From positions 1-51,522 of the IMG/VR virus record IMGVR_UViG_3300039149_000010: a DNA stretch of 51,522 nt; one strand, given 5' to 3'. The DNA comes from a virus (lineage: Duplodnaviria > Caudoviricetes). Both the position numbers and the translations under genes were made by a program. Under the pieces are notes generated by a model that saw only the letters and a list, made by a program, of their open reading frames with translations, did not search any database and was not told the origin of the DNA. This document shows, one piece after another, positions 761 to 43,649 of this stretch. Within the stretch, counting starts at the first letter, position 1, and each line of letters opens with the position of its first letter.

Positions 761-2542
761 CTAGAATACCGTGTCTTTACCCACTGCAATAGGCATTGGG
801 TTTTGTTCGGGTACAGCTTCTGCCTCTTGCCAATTGAAAAATCCGATACCCCCTTTGAAACGTAACGGGATATGCTCGTTCCCAACATACCGATAACGGT
901 GTTTACCCACATAAAGTAGGGCCTTGCCTGCTGGATACTGTTCAGTTAAATCACGCTGTCTGGTGTCTTTCATATCAATCATATTTCGGGAAACATAATA
1001 ATGATGATAGTACAGCGGAATAACTATATCTGCGTCCTCTTCGATTGAACCGCTGCCCTTGCCATCATGAATGGTCGGAATTTTACTTGCTCGGCCGTCC
1101 ATCTTGCGTCCGATTTGAGATGTCCCAACGACAACCAATCCGGTAGTTCGCGCCAAGTCCTGAAGCGTATTGCTTACTTTGGTGGTGGTGTCGTAAATGC
1201 CATTTTTACTGCTGGTCTTTAGACGACTGATACTATCAATCATCAACCATTGAATCGGTAATTGTTGCTGCCATCGCTTAACCCACGTAACAATACTATC
1301 CACGTCAGGAGAGCCACCGTCATAAATGCGAGATAGCGATGGCTCAAGTAATTCCTGCTTTTCGCGTACCCGTTTCAATTCTTGTGCGCTGCATGTCCCT
1401 TCGATAATCTTTTCAATCGGAACACGGGCGGCATAGGCTACCATTCTATCGAACCAAATTTCGGGCGGTGTTTCGGTTGTCACCCATAACCCCGGCGCTT
1501 GCCAGAGGAACGCCATTGAAATAGACACGGCTAATGTACTCTTGCCCATGCCCGTAGCACCTAGAATGGTGTGGATTCGGTGTGGGCGAAATGTACCCAA
1601 CGCTTCATCCAATGCGTTAATGTGAGAGAATAACCCCGTTTTGATGACACGGCCTTTAAGGGTCTGCCGTGCCAACACCTGAATGGGAATAGACACCTCA
1701 TCGGTCGGAAGTTCTGTAGCCCGTTTCCGCAATTCCGACAGGCTGCTTTCCAGATAGAGTGTGCAGAAGTCGGCCAAGTCCTGAGAGCCGTCTAGCTTCA
1801 TGTCTACCCGCTTGGCATGGGGCAATTGTTCCAGCCACTTGCCCGCCGTCTTATTGCCCTTTTCATCGTCTTCCAGGCAGATGTAAATCGCGCCCGACCA
1901 TTTGCTTTGGAGTTCTGCAAGGTTGCTTTCGCTTAACGGATTTTCGCCGCCCTCTTGCGCCGCCGCCGGTACACCGTAATGCTGAGCGACCACCACCGAA
2001 GCCGCACCGTTGCACAATACCAGCGCCGGTGGGTTATCCTTTATGGCTCTATCCAACCCATACCAGCACGGACTAAAACCAGTCTGCGAGGTGAAGCGCT
2101 TTTCGTTGCTATCGCCGTCGATGAAACGGTAACGAAACCATTGTTTGCCGCTGGCATCAGTGACGGGATAACGCAAACATGGACGTTCCTGGTAGGTAAT
2201 TTTTTCCCACCCGGCCTTACTGTACACCTCCGGCTTTACCCCATGCGCTTGGGCGTAATCGGCTAAATCGGCGTAAGCGCGTTTACTGGTGGTTTCGGGC
2301 GTGCTGCCGTTGACCGGTAGTTCAATGCCCAACTTCGTAGCCAATTCGTATAGGCTGCCACTCTCGCCCGACACCTTGTCGTCATAGCAGCCGTGTTCAC
2401 CGTCGTCTATTTTGAGGGTCAATCCCAGACTGTCACTCCCAACACTCCATGGACGGTTGGCCCGGTATTGGTCTGTACCATCCTTGCGCAGTTTGAACGA
2501 TTGCAACGCGGCTAAAACTTTGTCAGCAGTGGTGTTATTCAT
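761..2542 (-). CDS. Primase-helicase (Toprim-like N-terminus plus DnaB/SF4 helicase)
   Basis: Walker A GATGMGKST, Walker B LMIDSI, SQIGR and GSGSIEEDADIVI DnaB motifs; Toprim-like WYGL...LVLCNG...EDDEKG. Confidence 0.88.
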   Translation of the reverse strand: MNNTTADKVLAALQSFKLRKDGTDQYRANRPWSVGSDSLGLTLKIDDGEHGCYDDKVSGESGSLYELATKLGIELPVNGSTPETTSKRAYADLADYAQAHGVKPEVYSKAGWEKITYQERPCLRYPVTDASGKQWFRYRFIDGDSNEKRFTSQTGFSPCWYGLDRAIKDNPPALVLCNGAASVVVAQHYGVPAAAQEGGENPLSESNLAELQSKWSGAIYICLEDDEKGNKTAGKWLEQLPHAKRVDMKLDGSQDLADFCTLYLESSLSELRKRATELPTDEVSIPIQVLARQTLKGRVIKTGLFSHINALDEALGTFRPHRIHTILGATGMGKSTLAVSISMAFLWQAPGLWVTTETPPEIWFDRMVAYAARVPIEKIIEGTCSAQELKRVREKQELLEPSLSRIYDGGSPDVDSIVTWVKRWQQQLPIQWLMIDSISRLKTSSKNGIYDTTTKVSNTLQDLARTTGLVVVGTSQIGRKMDGRASKIPTIHDGKGSGSIEEDADIVIPLYYHHYYVSRNMIDMKDTRQRDLTEQYPAGKALLYVGKHRYRYVGNEHIPLRFKGGIGFFNWQEAEAVPEQNPMPIAVGKDTVF

Positions 2543-3848
2543 ACGGATTCCCCATTAAGGCAAACACGCTGCCCTCTGGCGCTCCATTTCGACTGGACTT
2601 GCGCCGCACATCTGGCATCCCTTTCCCTTGCCATTCCATCACCCAACTTTGCACGGTTTCCACACTGCGTAAGTCACATCCTGGACAACGCCCTTGATAC
2701 CATTCCCAGAATACAAGTAATTGGTCGGGATGGGTTAACGGTTCAACCAAATTGTATTTTGCATACCCGTCTTTGCCGGTGCTACGCAAAACGTTTACAA
2801 TGCGTCCGTTTCGGAAACCGGCCTCTTTGGTCGTAGCCTTAACCGCATCGTACCATCTATCCTGCCAATGCTTCGCCTCAGAAATGTTCCCCGGCGCAAG
2901 GGGCTTCTTGTACTGTGCTTTCGGCGTTTCATCGGTTGGCTTTACTGCCGCCACAACATCGTCCAATGCATCACCCCATGCAATCACCCCCCGTTCAAGC
3001 AAATCATCAACATAAGCGCGGGCTGCTATCGGGTCGCCACTAAACGAATGCCCCGACATTGACGCGAGGCGGTCTGCTGCGCTGTAATTCCATGTTTGCG
3101 GATTTGAAACCATGTACGCATTGTATAGCAATTCCCACTCATTCTTTTTTCGCCGTGCAGTTATCAATTCACCGTCCATGTTTTCGATAGGCATAAGACG
3201 AAAAGAATATTTCCCGCTGGTAAACACATGCTTATCAGGCACTTTATCACTGTACACCCAATAACCGCCATTAGCCTCATAAGCGAATTTGGTGAAGCCC
3301 GGTAGGTTTTCGTAAAATACCTTGCGGATGAAATCACTATCCAAATCATTGACCGGCGTTGCTATCGGACTATCCAATTCACCAAAGGGCTGCCCCTTAA
3401 CATCGGTTGGTTTTTCAGCATTGGATTGCACCGCATCGCCAGAGGCGATAGAGTCTTTTATCTTTGTTGACGGTTCTAAGGACGGTTCGGGTGACATCTG
3501 GGTGTCAGGGGTAGGGGTGACATCCTTAGTGTCAGGGGTGACATCTATGTCGGGGGTCTGTTCTGACTTGTATGGTGGGCGTAATGGCGCGTTTTCAAAG
3601 GCCGTACAATAGATAGTTGTCTTACCCGGTCGTCGCTTTTGAATCTTCAGTATATCCTTTTTGAGAAGCGACTTAATTAACCGCTGGATAGTACGTTCTG
3701 AATAGCCTGTTTTCCATGCAATCAACCCGACACTGGGCCAGATGTTTTCTCCTAAGTGGTCGGCGTGGTCAGTCATCGCCAACAATACCAGTTGCTCATT
3801 CGTTGGCAGGTCTAAATCCCAGACTTGCCCCATAATTTTACCACTCAT
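2535..3848 (-). CDS. Replication initiator with N-terminal winged HTH
   Basis: LVLLAMTDHAD...WPSVGLIAWKTGYSERTIQRLIKSL is typical of phage Rep HTH domains. AGGGAG RBS precedes the ATG at 3848. Internal iterons; adjacent to the helicase. Confidence 0.8.
   Translation of the reverse strand: MSGKIMGQVWDLDLPTNEQLVLLAMTDHADHLGENIWPSVGLIAWKTGYSERTIQRLIKSLLKKDILKIQKRRPGKTTIYCTAFENAPLRPPYKSEQTPDIDVTPDTKDVTPTPDTQMSPEPSLEPSTKIKDSIASGDAVQSNAEKPTDVKGQPFGELDSPIATPVNDLDSDFIRKVFYENLPGFTKFAYEANGGYWVYSDKVPDKHVFTSGKYSFRLMPIENMDGELITARRKKNEWELLYNAYMVSNPQTWNYSAADRLASMSGHSFSGDPIAARAYVDDLLERGVIAWGDALDDVVAAVKPTDETPKAQYKKPLAPGNISEAKHWQDRWYDAVKATTKEAGFRNGRIVNVLRSTGKDGYAKYNLVEPLTHPDQLLVFWEWYQGRCPGCDLRSVETVQSWVMEWQGKGMPDVRRKSSRNGAPEGSVFALMGNPYE
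3489..3557. repeat. Iterons, probable replication origin inside the initiator gene
   Basis: Three GGGTGACATC copies (3489, 3515, 3536), each followed by TGTCA/TGTCG GGGG, forming short TGACA...TGTCA palindromes just after the HTH-coding region, as in lambda O-type genes. Confidence 0.7.
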
Positions 3849-3868
3849 AGTTAGCTCCCTGTTCCATA

Positions 3869-3998
3869 GGTACAAAAAACCCCGTCTAACGGTGGGCGCT
3901 TTTGGGCATTTGGTAGTGTCCGGCAGGGTGGACAATTCCCGAAAGCACGCCCCGTTAAAGGGGGTTTACATCCCTGCCTAGCTATAGCGCTACCAACG
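3869..3998 (-). promoter_or_regulatory. Structured attenuator-like 5' leader of the initiator gene
   Basis: Interleaved complementary segments a-b-a'-b' ending in a U6 tract (see findings). Confidence 0.6.
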
Positions 3999-5410: not shown

Positions 5411-5740
5411 TTACCGTTTATCCCCGTCGCCCTGGATTGTCCCCCGGCGTTGGCGGTCGGTTAGCTTGTCCAGGTTGTTTTGGGCGATGTCGTCTAAATC
5501 CAATCCGAGTTCAGTTGCCAGTGCTGCGCAGTACCAGAGAATATCCCCAATTTCATCAGCAATCGCTCCCCGGCAATCCAGGGTGCGGACATCCCCGCGC
5601 AAAACCTTTTTGACCTTATTTGCCACTTCCCCGGATTCACCTACCAGCCCCAGCGCAGCATAGGCTAACCCGGCGTTTTGCCCTTGTCCGGGGTAAATGG
5701 CGGTCTCTTGAGATTTGTCCTGATAATTAAGTAGGTTCAT
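5411..5740 (-). CDS. MazG-like nucleoside triphosphate pyrophosphohydrolase
   Basis: LGLVGESGEVANKVKK...DEIGDILWY...NLDKL..R..RG.I.GDGDKR signature. Confidence 0.92.
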   Translation of the reverse strand: MNLLNYQDKSQETAIYPGQGQNAGLAYAALGLVGESGEVANKVKKVLRGDVRTLDCRGAIADEIGDILWYCAALATELGLDLDDIAQNNLDKLTDRQRRGTIQGDGDKR

Positions 5741-5991
5741 TATTCGCCTTTCGCTTCAAAGTGCATAAACACGACCATCTGGTCGTCAACCCACTCGGTA
5801 TGCATAACCAGTTGATGGGTTGCGATAAATTCGCGGTATTGGTTCAGGGCACGGTGCATAACATCCGCTGGGCAAATGCGTACTTCAGTAGCGCCCGATT
5901 CGGAACAGGCGATTAAAATCACATCGCTTCTCCCGTCCCAGTCGGATAAGCTGGCAATAGACGGGATTTTATTTGGGTCTGGGTCGCTCAT
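5740..5991 (-). CDS. Hypothetical protein
   Basis: Translationally coupled to both neighbours. Confidence 0.65.
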   Translation of the reverse strand: MSDPDPNKIPSIASLSDWDGRSDVILIACSESGATEVRICPADVMHRALNQYREFIATHQLVMHTEWVDDQMVVFMHFEAKGE

Positions 5992-6509
5992 AAGTCCTCT
6001 TTCGCTTCTGCCAGTTCAAATTCCAGCACCCACACCGCCGGGTTGTCTGTCCAACGTGTACCGGGGTTGGTGTGAATGGTATCCCAAATCTCGGCGTAGG
6101 CATCCCGTCGTAAGCCAATGTCGAATCCGAATTGAATCGCACCGGCTAATGTACCGGCAGCCTGGACATTAACTGGCAACTCAATCCCCTCTGCAATCGC
6201 GTCCGCTTCGGTGATGTCCTGTACATACTCTTGGCGAATGCCGGTGAGCCGAATACGGGCAATCTGCTTTTTCCCGCGCCCCGGCTGGACGGCATAAGTA
6301 CGCCCGACAGCCCATTTGATTCGTAAATCGCCGGTATACACGCCACTAAAAACCGCGCTGATTTTTTTGGGTGGGATAATGCAACGTAAGTCCGGCCACT
6401 CCATTGCATCATAGGCTAGTGTTTTATCGTCCGTATGGTTTTCAGATACCAGTCGCCGCGTCTGCGTCTTTCTGCCTGATAACACGTCCTGCCACTGTTT
6501 GAATATCAT
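5988..6509 (-). CDS. ASCH-like domain protein
   Basis: GRKTQTRR...VQDITEADAIAEG...WTDNPAVWVLEF, a typical phage ASCH-like family pattern. Confidence 0.8.
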   Translation of the reverse strand: MIFKQWQDVLSGRKTQTRRLVSENHTDDKTLAYDAMEWPDLRCIIPPKKISAVFSGVYTGDLRIKWAVGRTYAVQPGRGKKQIARIRLTGIRQEYVQDITEADAIAEGIELPVNVQAAGTLAGAIQFGFDIGLRRDAYAEIWDTIHTNPGTRWTDNPAVWVLEFELAEAKEDL

Positions 6510-6640
6510 ATTCTCTCCTATCCATTCCGCCTACGCGGAAAATAAACGCCCTGGTAGCCCCCGATGGCTCTGCTCATACCACGCACCGTCACGTCTCAAA
6601 TGCGATAGTGGTCATCAGCAATTCCAGGGCGGTGATGCAT

Positions 6641-6725
6641 TGGAAATGGGCGGAATCGAACCGCCGTCCAGGTGGGCGCTTAATCGCACTAAGCCTCTGC
6701 CCACCTGTCGAATCCTGTCATTCCC
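6641..6725 (-). ncRNA. Miniature tmRNA-like RNA (tRNA-like domain only, alanine identity)
   Basis: Acceptor stem GGGAATG/CATTTCC with G3-U70 and discriminator A; stemless D-loop ACAGGATTCGA; helix CAGGTGGGC/GCCCACCTG; GAC linker; T-arm GGCGG-TTCGATT-CCGCC; no anticodon loop; CCA not encoded. Confidence 0.8.
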
Positions 6726-7027
6726 TAGTGCTCCACTTGCCCGACCTTGACTGGTTTGTACTCACTGTCGAGTTGCACCGGGATAGGCGCGGGTAGTTCC
6801 AATCGCTTGTTGTGAGGCCACTCAAAGTCCAGTCCGCAAGAGTCGAATACATCCTGACTTTCAGAGTACATTAATCTTGAGCCTTCCTTACCGTCTTTAT
6901 CTTTGAAATGCAGTGTCCAGCGATCACGTAGGAACTTACCCCGGCTATCCTTACCCCGGCTACGGTGGCTAATGGCATGAACGTCAACCCACTGAGCTAA
7001 CGTTGCCCCTGCTATGTCGTCACTCAA
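6725..7027 (-). CDS. Hypothetical protein
   Basis: 100-aa ORF overlapping the upstream stop; its TAG shares the first base of the RNA. Confidence 0.65.
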   Translation of the reverse strand: MSDDIAGATLAQWVDVHAISHRSRGKDSRGKFLRDRWTLHFKDKDGKEGSRLMYSESQDVFDSCGLDFEWPHNKRLELPAPIPVQLDSEYKPVKVGQVEH

Positions 7028-8019
7028 AAAGGGACATCTTCATCAGCGCCCCCGTTGCCTTTGGCCTTTGCTGGCGATTCATCTTTGTATTGGTTGTAGG
7101 CTACCAATACGTCCCACGCCTGTTGGATGGTTTTATCGTATTTGTACCAGTCATCGAATGAGGTGATAGGCGCGCCATTGTCCATAGCGGCAGTCAAAAC
7201 AGTGAACGTCATTGGCTCGTCTAGCAAGAAATCTTTGAAAGCGCGGTGGAGTAAAATCGCTTCTATCGCCCTGTATCCTGCCATATCCATACTGAGTGTA
7301 CCATCTTCAAGAAGGTTCTTGATTGTGCCGCGCCGATGGAAAGAGTCTTTGTCATCGGGATACATAAATGCGATAACTTCGGTCAGACCTTTAGTGTCTA
7401 ACGATGGATGTTGATTGCCGTCTGCTTGTGCCGGTTCGCTTTTAAGCTTTCCGTTCCCATTGGCTGGCGCAGGATTAATTGGCATCCGCTTGCTGGTACG
7501 TGGCGGGGCATCCTGTGGTGCGTGGCCATAAGTTTGGCTGTACCACGCGGCAAACTTATTTTTCGCCTCATTTTCCCGGCTACGGTGTTCATCCCAATCA
7601 TTCTCAGCATATCCAGCCGTGTACAGGTCAACACCCTCGTTGATATACGCACCAAATCCCCATACACTGGCTACACGTCTAAAGGTATCGGTCATCGCGC
7701 CTTTTTCCAGGTTTTCCGGGTCTTTCTGGGTGTTGTAGCTAGCGCTCTGTCCGCCATTGAAAGACCGTGACATTCCACGTATAGTCAAAGTTGCTGTGAT
7801 ATTGGCGTAACCATCACCCCGATAAATTTCGTCAACCGAAAATTCCCACTCACCAGGGAACAATTCATCTAACCGGCGCTGAATTGCGAACCGGTCAAGA
7901 TAAACAAACCAACGTACTCGCGTCCCGGCTTTGTTTTTGAATCCTTCCCGAATGCTGTGGGCTTCCAGTGGAAACGGGGCATATATAGATTGAATTTCGT
8001 TTTGGGTAAAAGCACTCAT
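7024..8019 (-). CDS. Rad52/Rad22-like single-strand annealing protein (Sak-like)
   Basis: YLD...IQRRLDELFPGEWEF...EKGAMTDTFRRVASVWGFGAYI motif; acidic DEDVPF tail. Confidence 0.85.
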   Translation of the reverse strand: MSAFTQNEIQSIYAPFPLEAHSIREGFKNKAGTRVRWFVYLDRFAIQRRLDELFPGEWEFSVDEIYRGDGYANITATLTIRGMSRSFNGGQSASYNTQKDPENLEKGAMTDTFRRVASVWGFGAYINEGVDLYTAGYAENDWDEHRSRENEAKNKFAAWYSQTYGHAPQDAPPRTSKRMPINPAPANGNGKLKSEPAQADGNQHPSLDTKGLTEVIAFMYPDDKDSFHRRGTIKNLLEDGTLSMDMAGYRAIEAILLHRAFKDFLLDEPMTFTVLTAAMDNGAPITSFDDWYKYDKTIQQAWDVLVAYNQYKDESPAKAKGNGGADEDVPF

Positions 8020-8285: not shown

Positions 8286-8342
8286 GTTATGCTTCTCCTA
8301 TCGTATACGGCATGATGGCTATGCCCTACGTCATTTTATCTG

Positions 8343-8367
8343 AAGCCCGGTTTTCCCGGGCTTTTTT
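8343..8367 (+). terminator. Intrinsic terminator-like hairpin
   Basis: AAGCCCGG-TTTTC-CCGGGCTT followed by a T tract. Confidence 0.6.
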
Positions 8368-8376
8368 GTTGCCTAC

Positions 8377-8421
8377 TTGACACCTAAATGCATTATACAC
8401 TATAATGATTTACATAGTCAA
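8377..8421. promoter_or_regulatory. Overlapping divergent sigma70 promoters
   Basis: Plus strand TTGACA(8377)-N18-TATAAT(8401); minus strand TTGACT(8421)-N18-TATAAT(8397); central palindrome CATTATA-CAC-TATAATG. Confidence 0.85.
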
Positions 8422-8448
8422 GTTAATGTTCAAATAACGGAGTATACA

Positions 8449-8685
8449 ATGGATGATAAGCAATTATTGAAGCATTTGAAAAATAAGCGTGCTGTATTGG
8501 GAATGTCTGCAACGGAACTGGCGCGGCGCTCAAATGTTTCACCCCTCACTATTCGCAACTATGAAATTGGGTCAAGCGACCCCCTGCTGAGTAACGTGAT
8601 TAACATAGCCGAACAATTGGGGTATGAAATTATGTTGCGCTGGAAGGGCTTGCCGCAGGAACGGGAGCGCGATAATGGAATTTGA
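8449..8685 (+). CDS. XRE/Cro-like HTH regulator
   Basis: LKNKRAVLGMSATELARRSNVSPLTIRNYEIGSSDPLL; GGAG RBS before the ATG at 8449. Confidence 0.9.
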   Translation: MDDKQLLKHLKNKRAVLGMSATELARRSNVSPLTIRNYEIGSSDPLLSNVINIAEQLGYEIMLRWKGLPQERERDNGI

Positions 8686-28154: not shown

Positions 28155-28646
28155 CTAGTAAACTGACCTCATGAATGGAATGCGTAATGTGAACTCAATG
28201 CCCAATTGATTGGCAATAATGCCACTGTTTTGAAATACCACTAACCCGGTATGTGTGGTAATAAATGCTTGCGTGGTCGGGTCTAAATAATCTTGACAGT
28301 CGGTGTATGTGCCGCTGTCAGTGTTCAAACCGCTATGCTGTGCGAAATAATCCATAATCGGCACATAATACTCATGCGCTTTTTTCGGTTTGTCTCCTTC
28401 GTATCCGGCGGTTAAATGGTCAACCACCAAACGCATCAGAATGGTTTCGGGATTGTTTTGGATGTCCTCTGCAAAACCGGTGTAATCCGGTGTCATGGCA
28501 GCGAGGCGATTTGTCCAGTACGGAAAACTCTCCTGTTCGTAAGGCCAATAAGGAACAGCGTCACAAGCCACACCGATGGTATCGGCAAACACTTCCTTTT
28601 GCATTTCGACAATCCGGTCAAGTGCCTCTTCAATGTAGTTAGGCAT
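28155..28646 (-). CDS. Tail terminator-like protein
   Basis: Synteny and size. Confidence 0.5.
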   Translation of the reverse strand: MPNYIEEALDRIVEMQKEVFADTIGVACDAVPYWPYEQESFPYWTNRLAAMTPDYTGFAEDIQNNPETILMRLVVDHLTAGYEGDKPKKAHEYYVPIMDYFAQHSGLNTDSGTYTDCQDYLDPTTQAFITTHTGLVVFQNSGIIANQLGIEFTLRIPFMRSVY

Positions 28647-41378: not shown

Positions 41379-43649
41379 CTATCGGAAGTTAAAAAGCAAA
41401 TAACGGAGTGCATCGACTAAATGGTCGTCGATCTTTAAGGGTTTCGGTTCGCCCGCTTCGCTGGAGCTGAACTTGTCATCATACCGATACCCCTGCAATT
41501 CACGAATTAGGTTCTTACAGCGTGGGTGAATGTGCAAGGAGCGCTTGCCGCTGCCGTCACACAAAAAGCGCCGGACAACCTTTATACCATCCGCTACCCG
41601 ATGCGAGGCCGCGCCGTTGAAGATGTCTTTGTCGGTTAAGCGCCGCCGCAGTTCTGCCGCGCTGCTATCCACTAATGCCAAATCCGGTTCATGATACGAC
41701 CAGGACATCACCTCGTTAATACTGGCCTCTGGCAGTTGCAACGTTTTATAGTATTCGGCAAAAATGTTGAAGCCACCATCGTTGCGTTGGTTCGCTAACA
41801 CAAACGCCCTCGGATGATACCCCGGTGTTCCCAAACCGCCGCCTTCGGCATAGCCATCGTCAACGCCCCAAAACACCGGCAAGTCAGGATTGTATTCGGC
41901 CGCTTCGGTGACGTTTTCGGCGTAACTGAAGTTGTCATATATCGCGCCTTCGGCTGCTACCCACAACCCCTCCAACCCGCGCTGGCGACGTATGCCGGTC
42001 AGTTTATTGAGGTTTGTCATCACCTCACGCCCTCGGCCAGTCAGGTTGCCCGCGCTGTCATACAGCATAGGATTATGAATATGCAATTGTTCAAACATTT
42101 CCAGGTCTCCCACACTATGGCGGGCTAACAGCCAATGCCCTGGATACGACGGGTTACAGTCACTTAGGACTTGCGGGTGGATGGTATTACCCGCCCGCCC
42201 GTCTGCCCGCGCCGTCAGCATTTCGTAGGCCGTTAGTGGGATGTCCTCAACCTGATTGATATAAATGTAGTCAAACTCGGCACTTAAGAATTTACCCGGT
42301 TTATCCAGACCACCTAAAAGGATTTCGCCGCCGTTGCTGTATAGGTAGCGTTGCGGACGTTCACCGCCAAATACCTGCACCGGACTATCGGGATGTTCGG
42401 GGGGTAACGGCAGGACTTTTCGCTCGAAGGTTTCGCACGCGCTGTTAATCAGGTTATTGTAGGTATCGCGTACCCACAGCCCCTTTGCGTTAGGGGTATT
42501 GCACATGAGCCAATGAAACCAAACCAACGCCCCGTAAGTTTTGCCGGTGTTGTGATGCCAAGAACCTTCAGCTAAATAATGCTCATAACCCGGAACATGT
42601 AAATCATAATAATAATCGTTTCTCACAAATTCTATACTTGCAATGGTGCTTACAGGTACGGTATAATTAGGGTATCGTTCAAATAGTAATGAAAGGTTCT
42701 CTAATGGCTCGCCAATCGGCTTGTCAAAAGAATGATATGTTAGTTCGTCAAATGGTTGCGGACGGTGCAACGTTAACTGAGATTGCAAAAGCCGTTGGCA
42801 CAAACCGAACTCGTGTACGGGAGTATATTGAACGGGAGGATATTCCGCATAACCCAAATTGGCGAAGTACCGGGCATCGCCTAGAACGTCACGGTAATTG
42901 GAAGGGTGGTCGTATAGTTGACAAAAATGGCTATGTGCTGGTAAAAGTTGATGACCATCCGAATTGTAACCGTCACGGTTATATGCGAGAACATCGCCTT
43001 GTAATGGAACAGCAATTGGGTCGCTATTTAACACCCTCTGAAGTTGTGCATCACATTGATGGCAATAAGCAGAATAACCACCCTGACAATTTGAAGTTGT
43101 TCCATCGAAACGCCGATCACCTACGCAAAACTTTGAAGGGTAAGCGTCCGAATTGGACATCGAAGGGATGGGCGAATATGTGCAAACCGCGTCCCCGTAG
43201 GACAAAGAAGCAATAGCACGCCACCCCTCCGGTGTTAACACACGATGCCCTAATGTAGCAATAAACGAATTGCCATTTTCCAACGTAACACGATACAAAT
43301 TAGCGATACCTTTAATAAATGGGGGTGTCGCTTTCGCTTTTCCGTATCGCGTCAATACTGTTGGGGATGTCTCTGCAACATAATAATCTTCAATGGCAAC
43401 ATAATTACCGGTGTCAGGGTCATAAATACGTGTTTCCCCGGCAACACAATTGTAAGGCCCGTAGAGGTTGATTTCATGGGAGCGCCGGTTGTCAGCCACC
43501 AGTTGAGCAAAACCGCCCCGTTTCTCCAGCGTAGCAAATTCAGGGTAAAGATCAACGTCGTCTGCTGTTGCCGTTTGGACACCCAACCCATAGTCAATGA
43601 GTTCATCGTCACTGCAAGGTGGTGTAACTGTCAGCACGTTCAATGACAC
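41379..43649 (-). CDS. terL: Terminase large subunit, intein-containing (about 456 aa after splicing)
   Basis: Walker A GPYN|TGKT split by the intein; YIYINQVED Walker B region; DCNP coupling motif; RNase H-like GVDDG and DDHLVDALRY. Confidence 0.93.
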   Translation of the reverse strand: MSLNVLTVTPPCSDDELIDYGLGVQTATADDVDLYPEFATLEKRGGFAQLVADNRRSHEINLYGPYNCVAGETRIYDPDTGNYVAIEDYYVAETSPTVLTRYGKAKATPPFIKGIANLYRVTLENGNSFIATLGHRVLTPEGWRAIASLSYGDAVCTYSPIPSMSNSDAYPSKFCVGDRRFDGTTSNCQGGYSAYCHQCDAQLQRVLNSDPIAVPLQGDVLAYNRDGYNSDGHQLLPAHSHFCQLYDHPSNYRDVLGDARYFANLGYAEYPPVQYTPVHEFGLCQRLLQSQLTLHRPQPFDELTYHSFDKPIGEPLENLSLLFERYPNYTVPVSTIASIEFVRNDYYYDLHVPGYEHYLAEGSWHHNTGKTYGALVWFHWLMCNTPNAKGLWVRDTYNNLINSACETFERKVLPLPPEHPDSPVQVFGGERPQRYLYSNGGEILLGGLDKPGKFLSAEFDYIYINQVEDIPLTAYEMLTARADGRAGNTIHPQVLSDCNPSYPGHWLLARHSVGDLEMFEQLHIHNPMLYDSAGNLTGRGREVMTNLNKLTGIRRQRGLEGLWVAAEGAIYDNFSYAENVTEAAEYNPDLPVFWGVDDGYAEGGGLGTPGYHPRAFVLANQRNDGGFNIFAEYYKTLQLPEASINEVMSWSYHEPDLALVDSSAAELRRRLTDKDIFNGAASHRVADGIKVVRRFLCDGSGKRSLHIHPRCKNLIRELQGYRYDDKFSSSEAGEPKPLKIDDHLVDALRYLLFNFR
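42638..42667 (+). promoter_or_regulatory. Promoter for the antisense HNH, inside the intein coding sequence
   Basis: TTGCAA-N18-TATAAT. Confidence 0.65.
42704..43216 (+). CDS. HNH homing endonuclease encoded antisense inside the intein
   Basis: N-terminal HTH (ATLTEIAKAVGTNRTRV), NWKGG, GY..EHRLVMEQQLGRYL...EVVHHIDGNKQNNHPDNL; GAAAGG RBS before the ATG at 42704 (alternative ATG at 42689). Confidence 0.9.
   Translation: MARQSACQKNDMLVRQMVADGATLTEIAKAVGTNRTRVREYIEREDIPHNPNWRSTGHRLERHGNWKGGRIVDKNGYVLVKVDDHPNCNRHGYMREHRLVMEQQLGRYLTPSEVVHHIDGNKQNNHPDNLKLFHRNADHLRKTLKGKRPNWTSKGWANMCKPRPRRTKKQ

What the first reader, a model, noticed from the sequence alone, without database searches (positions are those of the whole stretch)
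6641..6725. Mini-tmRNA: an intact alanyl-tRNA-like domain with the whole mRNA/pseudoknot domain replaced by a short hairpin
Seen on the minus strand: GGGAATG-ACAGGATTCGA-CAGGTGGGC-AGAG-GCTTAGT-GCG-ATTAAGC-GCCCACCTG-GAC-GGCGG-TTCGATT-CCGCC-CATTTCC-A. Known: the G3-U70 pair, discriminator A, stemless D-loop with GGATTCGA, GAC linker and T-arm are the tmRNA features recognised by AlaRS, EF-Tu and SmpB, and normal tmRNA carries roughly 250 nt more in helix 2. The helix here is cleanly capped, which suggests a maintained RNA rather than decay. Inference: it could be an SmpB/EF-Tu decoy that blocks trans-translation, a tag-free ribosome-rescue RNA, or a decoy for tRNA-targeting defence nucleases. 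Reduced tmRNAs are known in some mitochondria and I recall a few phage cases, so novelty needs checking.
Basis: partly seen in the sequence, partly recalled or inferred. Interest (0 to 1): 0.82.

Follow-up and report, generated by a model that had tools for sequence, protein, structure and literature searches.

The report
Phage mini-tmRNA lacking the tag domain
A complete 51.5-kb phage genome carries an 85-nt gene that is just the alanine-tRNA-like part of the bacterial ribosome-rescue RNA (tmRNA) with no tag-coding part; this kind of RNA is known from one mycobacteriophage but turns out to recur in many phage and metagenome contigs.

Summary
Window 6641-6725 (minus strand) matches Rfam tmRNA end to end (62.2 bits; cut-off 47), with about 300 model positions replaced by a capped hairpin. 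It folds as described (z -4.1).

The window is a complete phage genome with terminal repeats. It has no integrase, SmpB or other tRNA, so an attP remnant is unlikely.

It is not the first of its kind. Mycobacteriophage DS6A is listed as "TLD only", and a similar molecule is reported to inhibit tmRNA (PMC4131195, PMC11915505).

One sequence pattern found 53 distinct mini-tmRNAs in 92 loci, counting the window. Streptomyces phages BRock and Alone3 carry unannotated copies.

All share one design. Helices covary strongly, and G1-C72, G2-C71 and G3-U70 are invariant in 55 of 55.

A model built without the window scores it 65.3 bits.

Best reading, at 0.45: an alanine-charged, tag-less tmRNA mimic that competes with host tmRNA for SmpB, EF-Tu and stalled ribosomes. 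Expression, charging and SmpB binding are untested.

Verdict: a new member of a known but under-described kind.

The parts
6641..6725 (-). Mini-tmRNA gene (TLD-only), 85 nt from G1 (6725) to discriminator A (6641). No CCA is encoded.
   Evidence: RF00023 62.2 bits, model 1-374 with 300 positions deleted. MFE fold z -4.1. 65.3 bits with model R2, built without the window.
6719..6725 (-). Acceptor stem, 5' strand GGGAAUG (G1, G2, G3).
   Evidence: Pairs with 6642-6648, including G3-U70. G1-C72, G2-C71 and G3-U70 are invariant in 55 of 55 family members.
6708..6715 (-). Stemless D-loop box GGAUUCGA.
   Evidence: Aligned to the tmRNA consensus GGaUUCGA.
6699..6707 (-). Helix 2a, 5' strand CAGGUGGGC.
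   Evidence: 9 pairs with 6669-6677. 7 of the 8 modelled helix-2a pairs show double changes across the family.
6695..6698 (-). 5'-side bulge AGAG between helix 2a and the distal hairpin.
   Evidence: Unpaired in the MFE fold. Aligned to the GAa internal loop of the Rfam tmRNA consensus. An A-rich internal loop is seen across the 53 family members.
6678..6694 (-). Distal capped hairpin: GCUUAGU, loop GCG, AUUAAGC. It stands where the roughly 300-nt mRNA and pseudoknot domain would be.
   Evidence: 7 pairs with a 3-nt loop. The helix-2 segment folds as a single hairpin in 53 of 53 members. The window's segment is the longest, at 39 nt.
6669..6677 (-). Helix 2a, 3' strand GCCCACCUG.
6649..6668 (-). 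GAC linker plus T arm (GGCGG, UUCGAUU, CCGCC).
   Evidence: T-stem cells are paired in 100% of cases, and 4 of 5 pairs show double changes.
6641..6648 (-). Acceptor 3' strand CAUUUCC plus discriminator A.
   Evidence: The discriminator is A in 50 of 53 family members.
6725..7027 (-). Upstream ORF (100 aa, no family). Its TAG stop (6727-6725) shares its last base with G1 of the RNA.
5988..6509 (-). Downstream ORF (173 aa) in phrog_874, function unknown. ASCH-like is a lead only.
7024..8019 (-). Erf-like single-strand annealing protein, in the same leftward operon.
   Evidence: phrog_1097, E 7e-09
8392..8421 (-). Best candidate sigma-70-like promoter for the leftward operon that contains the RNA (TTGACT, 18 nt, TATAAT). 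A second candidate lies at 8159-8130.
   Evidence: Consensus scan only. No promoter-like or terminator-like site was found next to the RNA.

Best explanation
The element is a phage gene for a tag-less tmRNA: the alanine-tRNA-like domain plus a short, capped helix 2.

Identity, about 0.9 confidence. It is a real, selected RNA gene of the 'TLD-only tmRNA' kind.

Mechanism, inferred, 0.45.
1. The RNA is transcribed within the leftward early operon (Erf-like recombinase, MazG, replication genes).
2. Host RNase P cuts it out at G1, and a host 3' processing activity trims the other end.
3. The host CCA-adding enzyme adds CCA.
4. Host AlaRS charges it with alanine through G3-U70 and A73.
5. As Ala-TLD it binds host SmpB and EF-Tu and enters the empty A site of ribosomes stalled on non-stop mRNAs, competing with host tmRNA.
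6. It has no resume codon or tag frame, so the nascent chain cannot receive the ssrA degradation tag.

The net effect is a dominant-negative block, or bypass, of host trans-translation during infection.

Shown: sequence anatomy, family membership, covariation, phage location, absence of integrase and SmpB.
Inferred: expression, processing, charging, SmpB and ribosome engagement, and the effect on the host.
For: The RNA itself
- Full-length match to RF00023 with only the internal domain missing. All 28 helix pairs are intact and the fold has z -4.1.

Genomic setting
- It lies in a complete phage genome with terminal repeats.
- It is that genome's only tRNA-like gene. ARAGORN finds 0 genes, and Rfam finds one family at gathering score.
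- There are no hits to integrase or resolvase families at E<=1.
- There are no hits to SmpB, RF-1 or CCA-adding families, so it must work with host factors.

The design recurs and is under selection
- The pattern found 10 IMG/VR contigs, and all 10 score 58.6-76 bits on RF00023 end to end.
- It found 116 metagenome stretches.
- Together with the window these give 53 distinct GGG-type sequences in 92 loci.
- On 55 distinct sequences, 95.6% of cells are paired against 66.6% in shuffles. The covariation score is 0.677 against 0.151, and 0.07-0.12 when partners are slid. 15 of 20 pairs show double changes.

Alanine identity is conserved
- Acceptor positions 4-7 covary freely, but G1-C72, G2-C71 and G3-U70 are invariant in 55 of 55.
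- The discriminator is A in 50 of 53.
- Neither the pattern nor my filter forced U at position 70. This argues that the charged form matters.

Enrichment in viruses
- All 10 pattern hits in viral contigs are minis.
- Only 1 of 16 is a mini in the collection of 185,579 bacterial and archaeal species genomes.
- Cultured phages DS6A, BRock and Alone3 carry one. BRock is described as virulent (PMC7453282, abstract).

Published support, passages read
- PMC4131195 says the DS6A sequence is little more than the TLD. It adds that a similar molecule, chargeable or not, strongly inhibits tmRNA, perhaps by titrating SmpB (citing Mao et al. 2009).
- PMC11915505 says a similar form from DS6A was shown to inhibit endogenous tmRNA when expressed in E. 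coli.
- PMC3895274 reports that peptidyl transfer to a TLD-only tmRNA was studied in vitro and was blocked by kirromycin.
Against: - There is no expression evidence of any kind, and no promoter or terminator of its own.
- No CCA is encoded, so activity depends on a host CCA-adding enzyme.
- The host is unknown, so the match to its SmpB and AlaRS cannot be checked.
- If pure SmpB titration were enough ('whether or not chargeable', PMC4131195), the strict conservation of alanine identity would be unexplained. That fits ribosome engagement, but it fits a tag-free rescue role equally well.
- Several family members sit inside large tRNA arrays of 14-20 tRNAs in L011, L066/L145 and L098, and in BRock and Alone3. 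Such arrays are usually read as supporting translation, not inhibiting a host pathway.
- The primary paper for the inhibition claim (Mao et al. 2009) is not held. I know it only through two citing passages.
- No close relative of this particular phage or RNA was found. Conservation is shown at family level, not for this lineage.
Confidence: 0.45

Rival explanations
1. Tag-free ribosome rescue that benefits the phage. Ala-TLD with host SmpB enters stalled ribosomes and takes the nascent chain, adding a single alanine. The complex is then resolved by host factors. Ribosomes trapped on mRNAs broken during infection are recycled without marking phage proteins for proteolysis.
For: - The same anatomical evidence applies.
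- Alanine identity is conserved: G3-U70 in 55 of 55 and A73 in 50 of 53.
- Members sit inside tRNA arrays of virulent-type phages.
- CDS-less tmRNAs in mitochondria and plastids are thought still to help with incomplete mRNAs (PMC11915505, passage).
- tmRNAs with tags of only two residues exist (same passage).
- TLD-only RNA has been studied as a peptidyl-transfer acceptor in vitro (PMC3895274, passage).
Against: - The window's genome encodes no release or hydrolase partner. RF-1 domain gives 0 hits.
- After transfer there is no codon on which to continue or terminate, so the ribosome would still need a second rescue step.
- The published observation for a similar molecule is inhibition, not rescue (PMC4131195, PMC11915505).
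Confidence: 0.25
2. Anti-defence decoy. The RNA mimics the tmRNA/tRNA acceptor-T-arm module to soak up or misdirect a host factor other than the rescue pathway. Candidates are RNase R (recruited by tmRNA-SmpB), defence proteins with SmpB-like domains, or nucleases that attack acceptor ends.
For: - tRNA fragments and tmRNA fragments of about 90 nt form part of the AcrIIIA1 anti-CRISPR complex and bind RNase R (PMC11662646, passages).
- CoCoNuT defence systems carry SmpB-like domains predicted to bind tmRNA (PMC11090510, passages).
- The RNA is in an early operon.
- The class is enriched in viruses.
Against: - There is no link between any of these systems and the window or its unknown host.
- No conserved protein partner sits next to the minis. 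No window ORF joined any of the 25 largest neighbour clusters listed, and the most widespread cluster spans only 8 distinct mini sequences.
- The RNA has no anticodon arm, so it cannot be a decoy for anticodon nucleases.
- Conserved alanine identity is not needed for a passive decoy.
Confidence: 0.12
3. An RNase P-directed processing signal. The tRNA-like fold mainly serves to cut the polycistronic early transcript just after the upstream ORF, setting that mRNA's 3' end. The excised RNA is a by-product.
For: - G1 is the last base of the upstream TAG stop.
- An upstream same-strand ORF ends within 15 nt of G1 in 18 of 46 distinct minis that have such an ORF. There is a 1-nt overlap in 5 of them.
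- A downstream ORF starts within 15 nt in only 5 of 41.
Against: - Any tRNA-like fold would do for this job. That does not explain retention of tmRNA-specific features (stemless GGAUUCGA D-loop, helix 2a with an A-rich internal loop, GAC linker) or strict alanine identity.
- Tight gene spacing is ordinary in phages.
- ORFs were called naively, by the longest-frame rule.
Confidence: 0.08
4. A non-functional relic. It could be a leftover attP or ssrA fragment from integration into a host tmRNA gene, or a decayed phage tmRNA with an internal deletion.
For: - tmRNA genes are common integration sites, and ssrA fragments occur in prophages (PMC4131195 and PMC9004378, passages).
- No relative of this phage was found to show lineage-level conservation.
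Against: - Both halves of the gene are present and pair perfectly, whereas my understanding from recall is that integration leaves only one end of ssrA.
- There is no integrase or resolvase in a complete genome.
- 54 other distinct sequences with the same boundaries covary.
- The helix-2 segment length is narrowly distributed, 30-34 nt in 44 of 53, although the pattern allowed a 31-nt range.
- In the one other complete viral record that has an integrase, the integrase lies about 36 kb from the mini, or about 10 kb if the record is circular.
Confidence: 0.05

Closest known systems
TLD-only tmRNA of Mycobacterium phage DS6A (tmRNA Website entry; Hudson, Lau & Williams 2014, PMC4131195; PMC11915505)
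   Same: - Phage-borne and about 80 nt long.
- Acceptor stem with G3-U70, helix 2 closed by a short hairpin, and a T arm. There is no tag frame or pseudoknots.
- It lies between protein genes on their strand, 10 nt after the upstream gene.
- Recognised by the same covariance models: 50.2 bits with both R1 and R2.
- Unannotated in its GenBank record.
   Different: - DS6A has a degenerate D-loop box (GGUGGUCGA). It scores below Rfam's cut-off (43.2 against 47), while the window scores 62.2.
- The window's helix 2 is longer, 9 + 7 bp. At 39 nt it is the longest segment of the 53.
- The window's acceptor stem is A/U-rich at positions 4-6.
- The two phages share no detectable nucleotide similarity.
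Unannotated mini-tmRNAs in Streptomyces phages BRock (KX925554) and Alone3 (OR725492), found here
   Same: The same architecture. BRock scores 64.5 bits on RF00023 and 74.4 on R2. Alone3 scores 59.4 on R2.
   Different: - They sit inside tRNA arrays of phages of about 112-116 kb. The window's phage has no tRNA at all.
- Alone3 is below Rfam's cut-off, at 36.8 bits.
CDS-less organellar tmRNAs (jakobid mitochondria; Mallomonadaceae plastids, about 65 bp; PMC11915505 passage)
   Same: The tRNA-like domain is retained and the tag reading frame is lost.
   Different: - They are organellar genes working with an imported SmpB, and are the only tmRNA of their compartment.
- Here the RNA is an extra copy brought in by a virus alongside the host's own complete tmRNA.
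- I did not compare the sequences directly.
Full-length phage tmRNAs (mycobacteriophage Bxz1 group, Bacillus phage G, two-piece tmRNA of Methylophilales phage Melnitz; PMC4131195, PMC9004378)
   Same: Phage-encoded members of the ssrA family. They are often in early regions or near tRNAs.
   Different: - They keep the tag frame and pseudoknots, and ARAGORN finds them.
- The window's RNA lacks both, and ARAGORN misses it.
- ARAGORN makes a call overlapping only 7 of 93 minis.
Engineered TLD fragments used in vitro with SmpB, EF-Tu and ribosomes (Shimizu & Ueda 2006, as described in PMC3895274)
   Same: A tRNA-like domain with helix 2 truncated, studied as an acceptor in peptidyl transfer.
   Different: These are laboratory constructs. 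The natural RNAs keep a specific A-rich internal loop and a distal hairpin of narrow length. Whether the constructs share this was not checked.

Membership tests
tmRNA (ssrA, Rfam RF00023) | Score at or above the curated gathering threshold, over the whole model | tested here: met
   62.2 bits against 47, model positions 1-374. The score comes only from the two ends.
tmRNA (ssrA, Rfam RF00023) | Alanine identity set: G3-U70 wobble pair and discriminator A73 on a 7-bp acceptor stem | tested here: met
   Sequence and fold. G3-U70 in 55 of 55 relatives.
tmRNA (ssrA, Rfam RF00023) | Stemless D-loop (GGAUUCGA), a helix 2a neck with a GAC linker, and a T arm with a UUCGAnU loop | tested here: met
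   Alignment to the family consensus.
tmRNA (ssrA, Rfam RF00023) | mRNA-like domain with a resume codon and a tag reading frame ending in a stop | tested here: not met
   300 model positions are absent. Only 39 nt lie between the D-loop box and the GAC linker, and all of them are in one hairpin. ARAGORN calls no tmRNA.
tmRNA (ssrA, Rfam RF00023) | Pseudoknots PK1-PK4 | tested here: not met
   There is no sequence left to form them.
tmRNA (ssrA, Rfam RF00023) | Encoded 3' CCA (required by the curators of the 2025 tmRNA database, PMC11915505 passage) | tested here: not met
   The discriminator A is followed by AUG. CCA is encoded in 26 of 53 minis.
tmRNA (ssrA, Rfam RF00023) | Charged by AlaRS; bound by SmpB and EF-Tu; acts on stalled ribosomes | not testable with these tools
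   Needs biochemistry. No RNA sequencing run holds the stretch.
TLD-only phage tmRNA (DS6A type) | Encoded in a phage genome | tested here: met
   Complete virus record with direct terminal repeats. Terminase, tail fibre, replication and recombination genes are present.
TLD-only phage tmRNA (DS6A type) | Intact TLD with helix 2 closed by a short hairpin; total length about 70-85 nt | tested here: met
   85 nt, against a family range of 68-85 with median 79.
TLD-only phage tmRNA (DS6A type) | Recognised by a structure model built from other members only | tested here: met
   R2, built from 12 sequences without the window, scores it 65.3 bits (E 8.6e-14). DS6A scores 50.2 and BRock 74.4. Full-length bacterial tmRNAs score 29-32.
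TLD-only phage tmRNA (DS6A type) | Inhibits the endogenous tmRNA when expressed | not testable with these tools
   Reported for a similar molecule in cited work (PMC4131195, PMC11915505). The primary paper is not held.
attP / ssrA fragment of an integrative element | Only one end of ssrA is present, next to an integrase gene | tested here: not met
   Both ends are present and paired. Integrase and resolvase families give 0 hits in the complete genome.
attP / ssrA fragment of an integrative element | Identity of the fragment to the host's ssrA | not testable with these tools
   The host is unknown.

The most novel reading that the evidence does not exclude
Tag-less, alanine-charged mini-tmRNAs are a widespread phage weapon against, or bypass of, host trans-translation. 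This would be a distinct RNA family rather than the single DS6A curiosity.

The family has a fixed design: TLD, helix 2a, an A-rich internal loop and a short cap.

In a subset that includes this window, the gene is placed so that RNase P release of the RNA cuts the upstream mRNA in or right after its stop codon. The phage would then create a non-stop message and at the same time supply the molecule that keeps its product from being ssrA-tagged.
Probability: 0.15. Interest if true: 0.75.

Novelty: new member of a known kind. Interest (0 to 1): 0.5.

Why it matters
Trans-translation is the main ribosome-rescue pathway of bacteria. Why phages carry tmRNA genes is unresolved: PMC9004378 offers only guesses.

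A natural RNA of about 80 nt that keeps everything needed for AlaRS, EF-Tu and SmpB, but cannot tag, would be a ready-made dominant-negative probe of that pathway. It would be a clear case of a virus manipulating ribosome quality control with an RNA mimic.

The practical points shown here:
- Such genes are much more common than the one published phage case. There are 53 distinct sequences from one strict pattern, plus unannotated copies in the cultured Streptomyces phages BRock and Alone3.
- They are largely invisible to the usual annotation tool. ARAGORN makes a call overlapping 7 of 93.
- They share a conserved architecture with invariant alanine identity.

BRock and Alone3 give tractable laboratory systems in which to test the function.

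Tried and rejected
Relatives of this phage
- blastn of 5500-8000 against cultured phages found no match.
- blastn of the RNA alone found only matches to its 3' part (query positions 52-88), none covering 80% of the query. Those annotated lie in tmRNA or tRNA genes.
- The search for related loci with the Erf-like protein and with the primase/helicase found no confirmed relative in viral contigs.
- Lineage-level conservation therefore could not be tested.

Host
- The nearest terminase relatives are actinophages at 31% identity or less. Helicase hits are scattered.

Expression
- The look-up of sequencing runs listed no RNA holder. It gave only one DNA run, from a sediment metagenome, that may be the source.

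Partner proteins
- There is no SmpB, RF-1-domain or CCA-adding enzyme in the window.
- SmpB gives 0 hits in 5 other viral records.
- All-against-all clustering of ORFs within 4 kb of the minis gave no cluster shared beyond sub-lineages, and none including the window.
- Of ten cluster representatives, 4 had Pfam hits and 3 had PHROG hits, including Hsp70, DUF6267 and GP88-like.
- Atlas look-ups of the two flanking ORFs gave only an ASCH-like lead for ORF 5988-6509 and nothing usable for ORF 6725-7027.

Rows dropped before counts
- Of 143 pattern matches, 46 were set aside: 45 with fewer than 6 of 7 acceptor pairs in my register, mostly the 3' parts of full-length tmRNAs, and 1 cut by a contig end.
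- Of 57 distinct sequences, 4 not starting with GGG were left out (L034, L041/L083, L086, L037). Three of them score 27.6-34.9 bits on R1 and L037 gave no hit at E<=0.01.
- L072, which my register had rejected, was recovered by the model at 49 bits and is in the 55.
- Alignment A4 was fitted to the model, so the pair counts lean towards the structure. The slid-partner control is given for that reason.

Considered and rejected
- A tiny tag frame. The hairpin reads GCU-UAG after the bulge, but it lies inside a 7-bp stem, 13 nt from the D-loop. I treated this as coincidence.
- A decoy for anticodon nucleases, because there is no anticodon arm.

Literature
- Searches found no paper describing a family of phage TLD-only tmRNAs beyond the DS6A mentions.
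- Supplements are closed, so the tmRNA database tables of PMC11915505 may list further phage cases that I could not see.
- Papers were read as 'find' passages only: PMC4131195, PMC11915505, PMC9004378, PMC3895274, PMC11662646, PMC11090510, PMC7453282. For PMC7453282 the only mention was in the reference list, and I also saw the abstract start. PMC7194413 had only a reference-list mention.
- Mao et al. 2009: nothing seen.
Full report
What is there

The parts in order are:
- a 7-bp acceptor stem, GGGAAUG paired with CAUUUCC, including G3-U70;
- ACA;
- the stemless D-loop box GGAUUCGA;
- a 9-bp helix 2a;
- a 4-nt bulge, AGAG;
- a 7-bp hairpin capped by GCG;
- GAC;
- a 5-bp T stem with a UUCGAUU loop;
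- discriminator A.

A scan of the whole window against Rfam at gathering thresholds returns one hit only. It is the tmRNA family RF00023 at 6638-6725(-), 62.2 bits against a cut-off of 47, E 5.2e-22. Both ends of the 374-position model are matched, 300 internal positions are skipped and 16 nt are inserted (repeated on 6300-7100).

The thermodynamic fold of the 85 nt is the proposed structure, at -39.5 kcal/mol. Shuffles give -25.6 +/- 3.4, so z = -4.1, and 0 of 200 shuffles fold as well. ARAGORN reports nothing in the window.

No CCA is encoded, since AUG follows the discriminator. And G1 is the last base of the TAG stop of the upstream ORF 6725-7027.

Context

The window is an entire virus record of 51,522 bp with direct terminal repeats, rated complete.

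The RNA lies in a leftward gene string:
- an 89-aa ORF;
- an Erf-like annealing protein (7024-8019);
- a 100-aa ORF;
- the RNA;
- a 131-nt spacer;
- a 173-aa ORF in phrog_874;
- a MazG-like pyrophosphatase (5411-5740);
- a replication initiator (2535-3935);
- a DnaB-like helicase/primase (761-2542).

Sigma-70-like sites stand at the head of this string, at 8421->8392 and 8159->8130. No promoter-like or terminator-like site lies next to the RNA. It is therefore most likely cut out of a polycistronic early transcript.

The genome has no match at E<=1 to the Phage_integrase or Resolvase families. It also has none to SmpB, the RF-1 domain or the CCA-adding enzyme family. The remaining genes include a large terminase, a tail fibre, an epimerase and a glycosyltransferase.

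The phage is remote from cultured phages. There is no nucleotide match, and terminase identity is 31% or less, best to actinophages. Its host is unknown. The only sequencing run holding the stretch is a sediment metagenome DNA run that may be its source.

Is it one of a kind?

No. Hudson, Lau and Williams list 'Mycobacterium phage DS6A (TLD only)'. They write that a similar molecule, chargeable or not, strongly inhibits tmRNA, perhaps by titrating SmpB, citing Mao et al. 2009 (PMC4131195, passages). The 2025 tmRNA database paper repeats this and adds CDS-less plastid tmRNAs of about 65 bp (PMC11915505, passages).

I located the DS6A RNA at 28478-28560. It is unannotated, begins 10 nt after gp33, and scores 43.2 bits on RF00023, below the cut-off.

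How common is the design?

I used one exact pattern: the D-loop box, 20-50 free bases, then GGAC and the T arm. It says nothing about the acceptor stem.
- In IMG/VR it found 10 contigs, and all 10 match RF00023 end to end at 58.6-76 bits with 290-314 positions missing.
- In the collection of one genome per bacterial or archaeal species it found 16 loci. Nine are ordinary full-length tmRNAs, six have no tmRNA hit, and one is a mini on a 1.6-kb contig of a MAG labelled Butyrivibrio.
- In metagenome contigs it found 116 stretches.

Of 143 pattern matches in all fetched DNA, 97 have at least 6 of 7 acceptor pairs. These collapse to 57 distinct sequences, of which 53 begin GGG. The 53 occupy 92 loci, counting the window.

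BLAST with one member also led to unannotated copies inside the tRNA arrays of two Streptomyces phages. BRock scores 64.5 bits on RF00023. Alone3 scores 36.8 bits on RF00023 but 58-59 bits on my models. BRock is described as virulent (PMC7453282, abstract start).

Similar BLAST hits in Pseudomonas, Xanthomonas and Stenotrophomonas phages turned out to be permuted two-piece tmRNAs, not minis.

ARAGORN makes a call overlapping only 7 of 93 minis, which may explain why they go unannotated.

Family anatomy and selection

A covariance model from 13 members (R1) recovers 55 distinct sequences at 47 bits or more, including DS6A.

On that alignment:
- 95.6% of cells pair, against 66.6% in column shuffles and 39-59% when partners are slid.
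- The covariation score is 0.677, against 0.151 in shuffles and 0.07-0.12 when slid.
- 15 of 20 pairs show changes on both sides.

The alignment was fitted to the model, so the slid control is the fairer comparison.

Acceptor positions 4-7, helix 2a and the T stem all vary with compensation. By contrast, G1-C72, G2-C71 and G3-U70 are the same in 55 of 55. The discriminator is A in 50 of 53, and CCA is encoded in 26 of 53.

The helix-2 segment folds as one hairpin in 53 of 53. It has an A-rich internal loop, averaging 3.8 nt on the 5' side and 2.2 nt on the 3' side. Its length is 30-34 nt in 44 of 53, although the pattern allowed a 31-nt range.

The window's RNA is the longest member, at 85 nt with a 39-nt helix-2 segment. 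It has no close relative among the 53.

A model built without it (R2) still scores it 65.3 bits (E 8.6e-14), its only hit in the window. Full-length bacterial tmRNAs score 29-32 bits.

Genomic setting of the family

- 16 of 93 loci hold other tRNAs. Arrays of 14-20 occur in L011, L066/L145 and L098.
- Five other viral records each have one RF00023 hit, the mini, and no SmpB.
- One of the five has an integrase. It lies about 36 kb from the mini, or about 10 kb if the record is circular.
- No protein neighbour is shared beyond sub-lineages.
- The mini tends to start right after an ORF. The ORF ends within 15 nt in 18 of 46 distinct minis that have an upstream same-strand ORF, and there is a 1-nt stop/G1 overlap in 5, including the window.
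- The next ORF starts within 15 nt in only 5 of 41.
- ORFs were called by a naive longest-frame rule, and phage genes are tightly packed anyway. I treat this spacing as a lead only.

How it most likely works

Shown: an intact, selected tRNA-like domain with the alanine identity set, on a virus, with no tag frame and no phage-encoded partner.

Inferred: it is released by RNase P and a 3' processing activity, given CCA by the host, and charged by AlaRS. It is then bound by SmpB and EF-Tu and delivered to stalled ribosomes, where it competes with host tmRNA but cannot supply a tag.

The strict conservation of G3-U70 and A73, while the rest of the stem drifts, argues that charging matters. That favours action at the ribosome over passive SmpB titration.

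The published inhibition by a similar molecule supports a dominant-negative effect (PMC4131195, PMC11915505). In vitro work on peptidyl transfer to a TLD-only tmRNA is described in PMC3895274 (passage).

I put 0.45 on this mechanism.

Rivals:
- Tag-free rescue that helps phage translation, 0.25. It is favoured by the tRNA-array settings and by organellar CDS-less tmRNAs.
- An anti-defence decoy, 0.12. The leads are tmRNA fragments in the AcrIIIA1 complex that bind RNase R (PMC11662646) and SmpB-like domains in CoCoNuT systems (PMC11090510).
- A processing signal for the upstream mRNA, 0.08.
- A relic or attP fragment, 0.05. This is contradicted by the paired 5' half, the lack of an integrase and the family covariation.

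Comparison with what is known, and novelty

The RNA works like, and is derived from, tmRNA. However, it fails two defining features of that family, the tag frame and the pseudoknots, so it should not be filed as a functional tmRNA.

It meets every testable feature of the DS6A-type TLD-only class.

The window is therefore a new member of a known kind. What appears new, within the limits of the searches and without access to supplements, is threefold:
- the size and uniform design of the class;
- its enrichment in viruses;
- its presence in cultured, tractable Streptomyces phages.

Limits

- There is no expression, charging or binding data, and the host is unknown.
- No relatives of this particular phage were found.
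- Prevalence rests on one exact pattern, so it is a lower bound that is biased towards consensus D-loops and T arms. The invariance of those two motifs within the family is imposed by that pattern, not observed.
- Most metagenome contigs were not shown to be viral.

Noticed in passing
window 6725-6727 (minus strand); also loci L062, L079, L110, L117: The TAG stop of the upstream ORF shares its last base with G1 of the mini-tmRNA. RNase P cleavage at G1 would therefore leave that mRNA without a complete stop codon. An upstream same-strand ORF ends within 15 nt of G1 in 18 of 46 distinct minis, and there is a 1-nt overlap in 5. A downstream ORF starts within 15 nt in only 5 of 41.
   Followed up: partly
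window 5988-6509 (minus strand): The 173-aa ORF just downstream of the RNA is in phrog_874, of unknown function. Its nearest Atlas clusters are mostly viral and partly labelled ASCH, a PUA-like RNA-binding fold. The score is 0.94, but only 10-25% of cluster members carry the Pfam family, so this is a lead only.
   Followed up: partly
window 6678-6694 (minus strand): Right after the AGAG bulge, the distal hairpin reads GCU-UAG, an alanine codon followed by a stop. It lies inside a 7-bp stem and is probably a coincidence.
   Followed up: no
window 41379-43649 (minus strand): The large terminase ORF is 756 aa, but only residues from about 365 to 755 match terminases. The N-terminal 360 aa or so are unexplained and could be a fused domain or an over-long ORF call.
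   Followed up: no
window 8300-8480: A divergent control region. It has a perfect TTGACA-18-TATAAT site on the plus strand (8377-8406) and an 11-of-12 site on the minus strand (8421-8392). A terminator-like hairpin lies at 8342-8364.
   Followed up: no
L006 5916-6012 (minus strand), IMG/VR contig: A Pistol ribozyme hit (RF02679, 50.7 bits against a cut-off of 34.5) lies about 2.2 kb from that contig's mini-tmRNA.
   Followed up: no
L153 1491-1571 (Streptomyces phage BRock, KX925554); L154 1480-1559 (Streptomyces phage Alone3, OR725492): Unannotated mini-tmRNAs inside tRNA arrays of cultured phages, lying after the annotated tRNA-Val in each array.
   Followed up: yes
L155 (Pseudomonas phage SM1), L156 (Xanthomonas phage Rb1), L157 (Stenotrophomonas phage DLP_6): Permuted two-piece tmRNA genes (RF04321, 103-137 bits) lie in stretches where the records annotate no RNA gene; in DLP_6 the match overlaps the last bases of one annotated CDS.
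   Followed up: partly
L068 682-2517 (minus strand), metagenome contig: A full-length Hsp70/DnaK gene (PF00012, E 1e-241; phrog_22485) starts 95 nt downstream of a mini-tmRNA, on the same strand. This neighbour cluster spans 3 distinct minis.
   Followed up: no
L002, L003, L010, L119, L096: ARAGORN labels these minis 'tmRNA' although they have no room for a normal tag frame. It calls the L088 copy 'tRNA-???' and the L115 copy 'tRNA-Gly'. I did not inspect the tags it proposes.
   Followed up: no
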